Shown here: piece after piece, positions 24,001 through 27,000 of the stretch
Layout of the letters: each line of letters begins with the position of its first letter
Numbering within the stretch: position 1 is the first letter of the stretch
NCBI RefSeq assembly: GCF_026571515.1
Contig: NW_026866687.1
Span: 248,001 to 312,000 of the forward strand
DNA length: 64,000 bases
Direction of reading: 5' to 3'
Source: Ruditapes philippinarum
Taxonomy: Eukaryota
Position numbers: made by a program

Positions 24001-27000
24001 AAATCAATGACAAATTTTCTTTTTTATGAAAAACATAGGCACTTAGGGACCATTTTTTAATTTTTTATTGAAAATTAATGTGCCACTACCTGTATTACTA
24101 CATGTATAAAGATTATTATGGACTCATTAATATGCTGTGAATTCACTTTATCTGTAGGCATGAATATATTATAGTTCTGTCACCAAAAGAAAAGTAAAAT
24201 GCAAATAATGTAATGTAAAAATGTTACAACAGACAAAATGAAATTTCATTGGATTTAACTTCTGCGAACTGACCTATCCACAAAAGAAAACACAAAAATA
24301 AGTGGCACATGTATAATAAAGAGTTTGCAGTTCAAGTTTGATAGTTTACTTACACAAAATAATTAAACATCTCCATTTAGCTCAAGCAAGAGGTAATGAC
24401 AATATTCATGTTTGTGTATGTTTGTTACATAAACTGAATTTAATAATGTTATGCAAGTTATGCCCACATGGAGAGGATCGGGAAACAGATGTGTAAAGCC
24501 TGCTCGTTAAATAAAGTGGTACTTATTTACTACTTCTTGATTTTTCTTAGTTTTTTTATAAAAAAAACAATTCTATAAATCTAAAAGGTTATACGTTTGT
24601 TAAGTATTTTTGTACATACCTCATTATCCCTTTGGGGCCCCCCAAAAACCATCCTCCCCTGGGAACTCAGCCCAAGTATCAACTTCTTCGGGGTTGACCA
24701 TACAAAATTTGGTTTATGTTAAGGGAAATTTAAAAATATATTGGCATTATTTTTTCCCTTCCATAAGGTTAAAATTTTCCCAAAAGTCATATGGGGTTTT
24801 CTTTAAAATAAAAATTCCCCCATGGCGATAAAAGAAAGTCACTGTAAGAGGCAAGTTGTTAACTAAACACAGACATTAACTTGAAAGTTAATTTTATCAA
24901 CAAAATGTATCTTCTTGAACATTGTAATCCAGATAACAATCATGTTGAATATATTCAGAAATAATCTTCTCACATAAAATATAGGAGCACAGTAAGACAG
25001 ATTAAATATATTGTTGTTAAAATTCAACTTCTGTGTAATATGATTAACATAAACAGGACCCCACCCCGTTCACATAGCCAAATGTATCTTTCTTTTTTTT
25101 AATTGTTAAATGAAAATTTGTGGTCATTGAAAAAACGCCAATGTCTTTACAAACATGAGGAACAGACAGTTTCTAACTGAGACTTTATTTAATAAAATTA
25201 ATATGTTTATCATTAATCAATGCAATTTCCAACACATTATTTCAACTTTTTCTTCCATGTACAGTTGACTCTCGGTAACTCGAAATCCAAGGGACTGGGC
25301 ATTTAACTTCGAGAGAAACGGAATTCGAGTAACGTGGAACCCCACCATTACATGTATATACATGTGCCTGATTGAATGTGCCAAAGGAGTAGGTTTGTTA
25401 TTGTTGTTAGCTGCAATGCTGCAATATTTAACCATTGAAATGACGGTAAATCACTTACAACTGCAAAATTATTAATGAACAAAAAATATATCATTCAAAA
25501 TTTAATACATGTATATTAATATGAAACAGAAACACACAATTACATTTGATTTAATTCATCATCGGACGGAAAACGAAATTAGCAACTATTCCTGAACCGG
25601 AAGTACAAATATGACAGATAATTAATTAAACAAATGTCCTTTACGTGATAAAACACACATCAATACCAAGGCTGTTATTTGACTTAACACCCGTCAGACT
25701 GGCATGAGTCAACTTTCTTTAAGAAATGTAATTAAATTTTAAGTTTAGTTTTATCTAACTGTTAAAACCAATTAAGTCCTGAAACGGCATTAAAGCCACT
25801 TTTACGACGTGTAATAATACATTTTAATCATGAGTGGACAACATCTCACCTGATGTTGCCGACCTTTTGATCAGACGTTTGTTTTCACACTTCGACTAAT
25901 TGAGATGTAAATATGTTGGACTTTAATTGAGGGACCAAATTTTTCTTTTCGACTAAACAGGAGTCTCGGCAAGTCAAAATTTGACCTAAGCGGAGTTAAA
26001 ATACAAAGATAAAGAAGAAAATTTGACGGGACTTTAGAAATTATTCGACTAAGACGGAATTTTGAGTAAAGCGATTTTGACTTATTGAGAGTCAACTGTA
26101 TTAGCTTTATTTTACCAGTATTAAATTAGACCATTTTTATAAATTATTTTATACTGTGGTATTTTCACAATTCAAAAGGCCCCAAACCAATTCACAAAAA
26201 ATCTTGAACAAAAACGCTGTTATAATTTAGTAGATCTTGTTGTGAGTCAGATTTTTCTGATTCAAATTTTAAGTAAAGACCCAAACATCACAATAACAGA
26301 AAACTATAAAGGATATCACAAAAAGCGCCTTTGTGTGGAATTTCTTGAGCCCTCTCTATAGTTCTGATCTGGTCTATAGTTTTCAAGTCAGGTGACAGAC
26401 CTCCATGTACACACAATATACATTCATCTATAATCTAAAATATACAAACAAACTATTATTAAGACTTAATGTAGTATGGAAAACCAAGTTCTGAGATCAA
26501 GTTTAATAGTATCTTCCAAGACTTCTCTAAAGATTGTTGAATGGAGAAACCAGGTTGCAAACCAATTAAGGCTCACACAAAAATTATCTGGATCGGGATG
26601 AATACAGCTTCATTAAATCTACTCCTTTGTTTTAGTTATAAATATGGTATACTTTTTCTACATTTCTTAATTATGGTGTTTAAAACTATGATATAAAACT
26701 GTAATAATTTCACGAACTTTTTTAATCCTTGTACATGTAGGCTCGTTTCTAAAGTGCAGCAGTATTTCTTAGTAGTGATGTTCTATCTTTTTTTTCAACA
26801 ACTTACAACTTATCTTTGAAAGGAATAAATGAAAAATTCTTACTGATGACTTTCAATTAACCAAAAAGTCACCCATACTGCTATAGACTAAATTCCACCC
26901 TATACTGGTTGGATAATCAGAAATCTTGTGAAACATCTATTTCAACTTTGTTGTGATGAAAATTTGGAAGCTTATTTGAAACCACTCAAGTCCATTTCCT

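What the first reader, a model, noticed from the sequence alone, without database searches (positions are those of the whole stretch)
24710..26316. Minor-spliceosome AT-AC intron in PPP6C
Seen: coding similarity breaks at ..KGAFC-G|, followed directly by ATATCCTTT. The next exon resumes at (D)LVWS, preceded by TTCCCTTAAC-ATAAAC with no AG. Knowledge: ATATCCTT plus a TCCTTAAC branch site close to an AC end defines U12 AT-AC introns, which are rare and can be rate-limiting. From memory, human PPP6C has no intron at this codon, so this may be an ancestral minor intron retained in molluscs that puts PP6 under minor-spliceosome control (inference).
Basis: partly seen in the sequence, partly recalled or inferred. 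Interest (0 to 1): 0.7.

Follow-up and report, generated by a model that had tools for sequence, protein, structure and literature searches.

The report
Minor-spliceosome intron in mollusc PP6 phosphatase
One intron of a bivalve-like protein phosphatase 6 gene starts with the textbook signal of the rare "minor" splicing machinery, an ordinary though seldom annotated kind of intron, but its far end sits in a badly sequenced patch and cannot be read reliably.

Summary
The gene is a 10-exon PP6 catalytic-subunit gene on the minus strand (35406..22524). Eight of its nine introns are GT..YAG. Intron 7 begins at 26316 with ATATCCTTT, directly after ..KGAFC + G (phase 1). A branch-site-like CCCTTAAC (24725-24718) lies 17 nt from the in-frame 3' end, and there is no AG within 49 nt upstream.

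All three genomic read-through ORFs fetched from other molluscs (Dreissena polymorpha, P0125, P0121) also read KGAFC-D-I-L and then diverge, as G|ATATCCT predicts. Five of seven named mollusc gene models are broken at or near this junction.

The 3' half is not readable. Exon 8 and the acceptor lie in the most homopolymer-rich patch of the window. Exon 8 needs five indel events to align to orthologs. As sequenced, the in-frame end is AA (24709). The AC at 24713-12 would replace the conserved Asp with Ala-Asn. One unnamed relative (P0191) has the same intron position ending in G.

Verdict: a U12-type intron with an AT 5' end. The AT-AC subtype and the deep-ancestry and regulatory claims are unproven. 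Human PPP6C is catalogued as a minor-intron gene, but for a different intron at the 5' end. Modest interest.

The parts
22524..35406 (-). PP6 catalytic-subunit gene, 10 coding exons: 35406-35338, 32549-32454, 30960-30895, 30042-29975, 29392-29319, 27208-27129, 26434-26317, 24708-24620, 23816-23759, 22714-22524 (including the stop)
   Evidence: tblastn of Haliotis rubra PP6c (P0052) and of P0002 against the window; boundaries read and checked; best named hits are PP6 catalytic subunits
26317..26434 (-). Exon 7, clean sequence, ends ..KGAFC + G (first base of the Asp codon)
   Evidence: 36 of 39 residues identical to P0002 (counted by eye from the alignment; not printed by the tool)
26308..26316 (-). 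U12-type 5' splice site ATATCCTTT, intron positions +1 to +9
   Evidence: D-I-L read-through conserved in Dreissena polymorpha P0122, P0125 and P0121
24709..26316 (-). Intron 7, phase 1, 1608 nt if it ends at the in-frame AA (24710-09), or 1605 nt if it ends at the AC (24713-12)
24718..24728 (-). Branch-site-like TTTCCCTTAAC. CCCTTAAC matches TCCTTAAC at 7 of 8 positions; the branch adenosines at 24720/24719 lie 10-11 nt before the last intron base 24709
   Evidence: lies inside the low-quality patch
24712..24713 (-).
   Evidence: read by eye
24620..24708 (-). Exon 8 as sequenced (89 nt, 92 expected), corrupted: three reading frames are needed to follow the ortholog
24625..24830 (.). Patch of homopolymer-inflated, unreliable sequence covering the acceptor, the branch motif and exon 8 (limits approximate)
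   Evidence: 150-nt windows between 24626 and 24825 rank first of all windows on both measures; limits read by eye

Best explanation
Intron 7 of this PP6 catalytic-subunit gene is a U12-type (minor-spliceosome) intron of the AT-initiated subtype. It lies on the minus strand and starts at 26316, in phase 1 between the Cys of KGAFC and the Asp of D-x-VWSDPE.

Inferred from the established mechanism of this intron class:
- U11 snRNP, and later U6atac, pairs with ATATCCTTT.
- U12 snRNA pairs with the (T)CCTTAAC-like element at 24725-24718.
- The 3' site is chosen by distance, about 10-12 nt downstream of the branch adenosine, rather than by a polypyrimidine tract plus AG.

Shown here:
- the exact position and sequence of the 5' site;
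- its conservation in other molluscs at the read-through protein level;
- the lack of any usable GT-AG pair that would keep the conserved C-D-x-V-W-S.

Not shown: which dinucleotide ends the intron (AC, AA or another). About 200 nt around the acceptor, including all of exon 8, are sequencing or assembly noise.
For: - Position and motifs: ATATCCTTT sits on the base after the exon-7 homology ends. Intron 7 is the only one of 9 introns not GT..YAG. It carries CCCTTAAC starting 17 nt from the in-frame 3' end and is phase 1. There is no AG for 49 nt upstream of exon 8.
- Spliced relatives: the transcript-like P0002 and the Argopecten irradians model read KGAFC-DLVWSDPE without interruption. The junction is therefore at this codon.
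- Conserved 5' site: the 3 genomic read-through ORFs I fetched, of the 62 hits to the exon-7 query, all read KGAFC-D-I-L and then diverge: SGNLF in Dreissena polymorpha P0122, YYVVS in P0125, FLYLA in P0121. The window reads YSFLL.
- Broken models: 5 of 7 named mollusc models fail at or near this junction. Mya arenaria and Octopus bimaculoides break after KGAF. Biomphalaria glabrata breaks after KGAFC. The PP6 part of the Magallana gigas model starts at DVETW. The Dreissena model reads through. GT-AG-only predictors are known to behave this way at AT-type introns.
- Literature: AT-AA is reported as the commonest non-canonical minor-intron terminus in animals, and molluscs as relatively rich in minor introns (Larue and Roy 2023, PMC10639083, passages only).
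Against: - The branch motif has an extra C relative to the consensus, and it lies in the worst-quality patch of the window.
- The terminal dinucleotide is AA in frame. The AC is 3 nt out of register with the conserved Asp.
- Neither motif is more frequent in the window than chance.
- No transcript from this organism was available.
- D-I-L conservation is protein-level evidence. It does not fix the nucleotides.
- One unnamed relative (P0191) has an intron at the same position whose last base is G. It shows no in-frame trace of TCCTTAAC in the 23 upstream codons. The class or subtype is therefore not uniform across relatives.
- The pyrimidine content before the 3' end (0.55) is no lower than in the GT-AG introns (0.50-0.75).
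Confidence: 0.85

Rival explanations
1. It is a U12-type intron, but not AT-AC. The true termini are AT-AA (as the frame requires in the sequence given) or AT-AG, and the AC at 24713-12 is incidental or an artefact of the noisy patch.
For: - The in-frame exon start is 24708, so the intron ends AA.
- Branch A to the AA end is 10-11 nt. To the AC end it is only 7-8 nt.
- Using AC would replace the conserved Asp.
- AT-AA is the commonest non-canonical minor terminus (PMC10639083, passages).
- P0191 shows a G-ending ortholog.
Against: The 12 bases between the branch motif and the exon (ATAAACCAAATT) are runs of repeated letters inside a patch where exon 8 demonstrably has gained and lost bases. 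A true ..AAC|AT.. cannot be excluded. AT-AC is by far the commonest partner of an AT 5' end (established knowledge, recalled).
Confidence: 0.45
2. It is a major-spliceosome (U2-type) intron. Either it uses a cryptic GT, for example the GT inside TGTG at 26319-18 that gene predictors appear to have used in Mya and Octopus, or it is one of the rare U2-dependent AT-AC introns.
For: A GT exists 2-3 nt upstream of the boundary. The models of Mya and Octopus break after KGAF, as if that GT had been used. The P0191 ortholog has a YAG-like acceptor.
Against: - Any GT-AG pair available here deletes or replaces the conserved Cys-Asp and part of exon 8. The nearest AGs are 24759/58 and 24687/86.
- Correctly spliced relatives keep KGAFC-DLVWSDPE.
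- The 5' end matches the U12 consensus, not the /ATAAGT-like consensus of U2-dependent AT-AC introns (the latter recalled).
- D-I-L is conserved in 3 of 3 fetched read-through ORFs.
Confidence: 0.05
3. The locus is a decaying pseudogene copy, so the odd splice signals and the frameshifted exon 8 have no functional meaning.
For: Exon 8 as sequenced carries four frameshifting indels and a missing codon.
Against: - All five events fall in one 89-nt exon. The other nine exons (about 817 nt) have no stop or frameshift and are 85-100% identical to P0002 apart from intron-derived HSP ends.
- The damage continues into both flanking introns as homopolymer inflation. That is the signature of read error, not of decay.
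- There is no second copy of exon 8 in the window.
Confidence: 0.05

Closest known systems
U12-type (minor-spliceosome) introns, AT-AC subtype
   Same: 5' end ATATCCTTT; branch-site-like CCTTAAC about 10-12 nt from the 3' end; no AG acceptor nearby; phase 1; a single such intron among ordinary GT-AG introns of a conserved housekeeping gene
   Different: The terminal AC is not in register with the reading frame as sequenced (the in-frame end is AA). The branch motif has one extra C. Both lie in unreliable sequence. No splicing data.
Non-canonical U12-type introns (AT-AA, AT-AG, AT-AT)
   Same: An AT 5' end with the U12 consensus and a 3' end other than AC. AT-AA is described as the commonest of these in animals and plants (PMC10639083, passages).
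   Different: It cannot be decided here whether AA is real or an artefact.
Human PPP6C minor intron listed in the Minor Intron Database (Olthof et al. 2019, PMC6717393, supplement passages)
   Same: Same gene family. The human gene is catalogued as a minor-intron-containing gene.
   Different: The human intron is GT-type, flagged 'HumanOnly' and 614 nt long. It lies at the 5' end of an alternative transcript, not at the KGAFC|D codon. No human sequence was compared.

Membership tests
U12-type intron | 5' splice site [A/G]TATCCTT starting at intron position +1 | tested here: met
   ATATCCTTT at 26316-26308, directly after the last exon base fixed by homology. The consensus itself is recalled.
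U12-type intron | Branch-point sequence TCCTTAAC-like, about 10-15 nt upstream of the 3' splice site | tested here: inconclusive
   CCCTTAAC (7 of 8) at 24725-24718, with the branch A 10-11 nt from the in-frame end. It lies inside the homopolymer-inflated patch. One-mismatch matches are as common as chance in the window (43 against 59.9).
U12-type intron | Conservation of the 5' splice-site motif in orthologous introns | tested here: met
   All 3 fetched genomic read-through ORFs (Dreissena polymorpha P0122, P0125, P0121) read KGAFC-D-I-L and then diverge. This is protein level only. The other 59 hits were not fetched.
U12-type intron | Removal depends on U11/U12/U4atac/U6atac snRNPs | not testable with these tools
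   No expression or knock-down data. The Rfam scan found no snRNA gene in the window (0 hits), which says nothing either way.
AT-AC subtype | The intron ends in AC, in register with the downstream codon | tested here: inconclusive
   As sequenced, the in-frame end is AA (24710-09). The AC at 24713-12 gives Ala-Asn instead of Asp. Sequence quality forbids a decision. The P0191 ortholog ends in G.
AT-AC subtype | Transcript junction joining 26317 to the start of exon 8 | not testable with these tools
   No reads from this organism. Spliced relatives (P0002, Argopecten P0003) show only that the junction falls at this codon.
PP6 catalytic subunit (PPP family, Metallophos) | PPP motifs GDxHGQ, GDxVDRG, GNHE, HGG, RAHQ and SAPNY, with closest named relatives being PP6c | tested here: met
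   Motifs found on the minus strand (the motif list is recalled). Best named hits are PP6 catalytic subunits of Argopecten, Mya and Haliotis, at 80-91% over the last exon.

The most novel reading that the evidence does not exclude
An AT-initiated U12-type intron at the KGAFC|D codon of PP6c is old. It is shared by bivalves, gastropods and cephalopods, and perhaps predates bilaterians, since the Nematostella model also lacks this region. It has changed subtype or class in some lineages: one unnamed relative ends in G, and no vertebrate minor intron is catalogued at this codon. This would make it a clean case for following subtype switching and U12-to-U2 conversion in one essential gene. It would also explain recurrent mis-annotation of PP6c in mollusc genomes.
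Probability: 0.4. Interest if true: 0.35.

Novelty: new member of a known kind. Interest (0 to 1): 0.22.

Why it matters
- Annotation: GT-AG-only gene predictors break PP6c at this junction. Five of seven named mollusc models are damaged here, so flagging the intron repairs an essential phosphatase gene model.
- Evolution: it adds one well-placed example to the catalogue of conserved minor introns in lophotrochozoans, with a hint of subtype change among relatives.
- Mechanism: it reveals nothing new. The suggested regulatory meaning (rate-limiting splicing of PP6) is untested.
- Assembly quality: the report also shows that about 200 nt of the assembly, including a whole coding exon, are unreliable.

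Tried and rejected
- Motif enrichment. Counts of RTATCCTT and of TCCTTAAC (up to 1 mismatch) in the window equal chance. They are useless as stand-alone evidence.
- Second copy of exon 8. None was found. A 6-residue FCELVW match inside intron 7 (26199..26182) has E = 13 and was dismissed as chance.
- Rfam scan of the window: 0 hits.
- Literature. 'PPP6C' + 'U12' gave 6 papers, none relevant by title or abstract. 'PPP6C' + 'minor intron' gave 0. 'AT-AC' + 'phosphatase 6' gave 0. A search combining U12-type with mollusc terms was badly framed and returned only unrelated papers.
- Supplements. The one held supplement file of Olthof 2024 (PMC11347168) has 0 occurrences of PPP6C. Whether the intron is already in those catalogues stayed unchecked.
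- Last intron base in relatives. I tried to read it from genomic read-through ORFs over exon 8 (37 hits, all unnamed). Only P0191 was clearly not of vertebrate type and was fetched. The other 36 were left unfetched, because their identity and coverage are compatible with vertebrate (possibly human) sequence. For the same reason 59 of the 62 hits were not fetched.
- Vertebrate intron positions. They could be guessed only from broken or exon-skipped named models. Two of them (Albula, Corythaeola) break near SDPE(D)|VDTW. This is too weak to use.
- Other collections. The closed collections (metagenome contigs, viral contigs) were not used. The bacterial/archaeal genome collection was not used, as it is irrelevant here.
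- Spliced model. Exons were searched one at a time.

Full report
**What is there.**
- The window is not human. The last exon of the gene is 91-92% identical to bivalve-type proteins and 78% identical to mammalian ones.
- On the minus strand lies a PP6 catalytic-subunit gene of ten coding exons, 35406..22524. It was mapped by tblastn with the Haliotis rubra protein P0052 and with P0002.
- Boundaries were read and re-checked by script.
- Exons were searched one at a time.

**The introns.**
- Eight of the nine introns begin GT and end YAG.
- Intron 7 is the exception. Exon 7 (26434..26317) ends ..EIPHKGAFC plus a G, and the next bases are ATATCCTTTATA (26316 onward). The intron is phase 1.
- At the other end the sequence reads TTTCCCTTAAC ATAAACCAA | ATTTTGTATGGTCA.
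- The only frame that continues the protein starts exon 8 at 24708 (G+AT = Asp, then F-V-W-S). As sequenced, the intron is therefore 26316..24709, 1608 nt, and ends AA.
It would also keep frame, but would replace the conserved Asp by Ala-Asn.
- CCCTTAAC starts 17 nt from the in-frame end, which puts the branch adenosines 10-11 nt from the last intron base.
- The nearest AG dinucleotides are 50 nt upstream (24759/58) and inside exon 8 (24687/86).

**Is it more than chance?**
- Not by counting motifs. RTATCCTT occurs 7 times in the window against 5.5 expected. TCCTTAAC with up to one mismatch occurs 43 times against 59.9 expected.
- The weight lies in position. The 5' motif sits on the exact base where protein homology ends, and the branch-like motif sits at the canonical distance from where homology resumes.
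- No GT-AG pair can reproduce the conserved C-D-x-V-W-S. Spliced relatives do show it: P0002 reads KGAFCDLVWSDPEEVETW, and Argopecten irradians P0003 reads KGAFCDLVWSDPEDVETW.

- The 150-nt windows between 24626 and 24825 are the top outliers of the whole 64-kb window. This holds for the fraction of bases equal to their predecessor (0.50 against a mean of 0.30, z 3.7). It also holds for G/C runs of three or more (9 against a mean of 1.3).
- A frameshift-tolerant alignment of exon 8 to three orthologs needs five events in 89 nt: two missing bases, one missing codon and two extra bases. Only 18-20 of 31 residues are identical.
- The other nine exons have no stop or frameshift, and there is no second copy of exon 8 in the window.
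- I read this as a patch of read or assembly error, not as gene decay. Consequently the branch motif (one C too many) and the last dozen bases of the intron cannot be trusted letter by letter.

**Comparative evidence for the 5' site.**
- I searched with the stop-to-stop ORF that contains exon 7 and runs into the intron. It returned 62 short proteins. Three were fetched: one named, and two unnamed ones that are clearly not of vertebrate type.
- All three are genomic read-through ORFs that continue KGAFC-D-I-L and then diverge from each other and from the window:
  - Dreissena polymorpha P0122: ..DILSGNLF.
  - P0125: ..DILYYVVS.
  - P0121: ..DILFLYLA.
  - The window: ..DILYSFLL.
- D-I-L is what G|AT ATC CTn encodes. 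A splice motif kept while the rest of the intron drifts would look like this. The evidence is at protein level only.
- Five of seven named mollusc gene models are damaged at or near this junction:
  - Mya arenaria and Octopus bimaculoides break after KGAF.
  - Biomphalaria glabrata breaks after KGAFC.
  - Magallana gigas is a chimeric model whose PP6 part begins at DVETW.
  - Dreissena is a single-exon read-through model.
  - Argopecten and Haliotis are correct.
- The Nematostella model P0009 lacks the whole stretch from IRTIE to VTNE. This is suggestive but not specific.

**Comparative evidence for the 3' site.**
- The residue before LVWS in a genomic read-through ORF reveals the last intron base: His for C, Asn for A, Asp for G.
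- A search with a 40-residue part of P0002 gave 37 short unnamed proteins. Only P0191 could be ruled non-vertebrate beforehand, and only it was fetched.
- P0191 reads ..TSIIYIS-D-LVWSDPEDVETWAMSPRGAGWLFGAKVTNE-VRII.. This shows the same intron position with a last base G. Ser-Asp fits TCA G|AT, a YAG-type acceptor.
- P0191 has no in-frame trace of TCCTTAAC in its 23 upstream codons. In at least one relative, therefore, the orthologous intron does not end in AC.
- The remaining 36 hits were not fetched, because their scores fit vertebrate and possibly human sequence. This question therefore stays largely open.

**Vertebrates and human.**
- All 15 vertebrate-type models that cover the junction, of 21 examined, read KGAFCDLVWSDPE without a break. 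This is uninformative about introns.
- Two models (Albula, Corythaeola) break near SDPE(D)|VDTW.
- The supplements of Olthof et al. 2019 (PMC6717393; passages only) list human PPP6C as a minor-intron gene, flagged 'HumanOnly' and GT-type. The intron is a 614-nt one at the 5' end of an alternative transcript, that is, a different intron. PPP2CA and PPP4C do not occur in those files.
- I did not look at human sequence.

**Literature.**
- No paper in the searchable library combines PPP6C with 'minor intron' (0 papers), or 'AT-AC' with 'phosphatase 6' (0 papers).
- 'PPP6C' + 'U12' gives 6 papers, all irrelevant by title or abstract.
- The one held supplement file of Olthof 2024 has no PPP6C entry.
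- From passages of Larue and Roy 2023: AT-AA is the commonest non-canonical minor-intron terminus in animals and plants, and molluscs are comparatively rich in minor introns.

**Mechanism.**
- The best reading is an ordinary U12-dependent intron. U11, then U6atac, binds ATATCCTTT. U12 binds the CCTTAAC element. The 3' site is picked by distance.
- These steps are inferred from the known class, not shown here.
- Dependence of PP6c mRNA on the minor spliceosome follows trivially. A rate-limiting or regulatory role is speculation.

**Verdict.**
The interpretation 'U12-type, AT-initiated' is well supported (0.85). 'AT-AC' is undecided, roughly even against AT-AA or another 3' end.
- Conservation within Mollusca is likely. 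Deeper ancestry and loss in vertebrates are untested.
- This is a new member of a well-known kind. Its value is mainly for annotation and as a small evolutionary data point.

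Noticed in passing
window 24620-24830: About 200 nt of homopolymer-inflated sequence. Coding exon 8 of PP6c inside it carries four frameshifting indels and a missing codon. This is probably read or assembly error and should be re-sequenced before any gene model is built.
   Followed up: yes
window 26303-26316 (minus strand): Reading through the 5' splice site gives D-I-L-Y-S, which mimics the true continuation D-x-V-W-S. tblastn therefore extends the exon-7 match 14 nt into the intron. This is a trap for homology-based exon calling.
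   Followed up: partly
window 27172-29022 (intron 5 of PP6c): Two tandem arrays of repeats of about 157 nt and about 165 nt (families D1-D8, 3-6 copies each, 61-97% identical) fill most of intron 5. Short ORFs in them repeat a ..GQNWPRPRG.. peptide.
   Followed up: no
window 38403-40109 (-): A 568-aa open frame with a reverse-transcriptase domain (RVT_1, E 4.6e-11). Probably a retrotransposon remnant; adjacent ORFs at 37515-38556 may belong to it.
   Followed up: no
window 44588-46615 (+): A 675-aa uninterrupted open frame matching DUF229 over its whole length (E 1.9e-102), plus a sulfatase-like stretch. An apparently intronless gene in an otherwise intron-rich region.
   Followed up: no
window 1378-12216 (+): A series of long open frames (245-569 aa) with no Pfam match, except weak sub-threshold fn3/Ig-like hits in 9228-10235. 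Possibly large exons of one gene.
   Followed up: no
window 26182-26199 (minus strand, inside intron 7): A six-residue FCELVW match to the FCDLVW junction peptide (E = 13). Treated as chance.
   Followed up: partly
proteins P0020, P0071, P0106, P0010, P0122 (other molluscs): Public PP6c gene models of Mya arenaria, Octopus bimaculoides, Biomphalaria glabrata, Magallana gigas and Dreissena polymorpha are truncated, chimeric or read-through at or near this junction.
   Followed up: partly
window 52007-52135: A run of 129 N. Left as it is.
   Followed up: no
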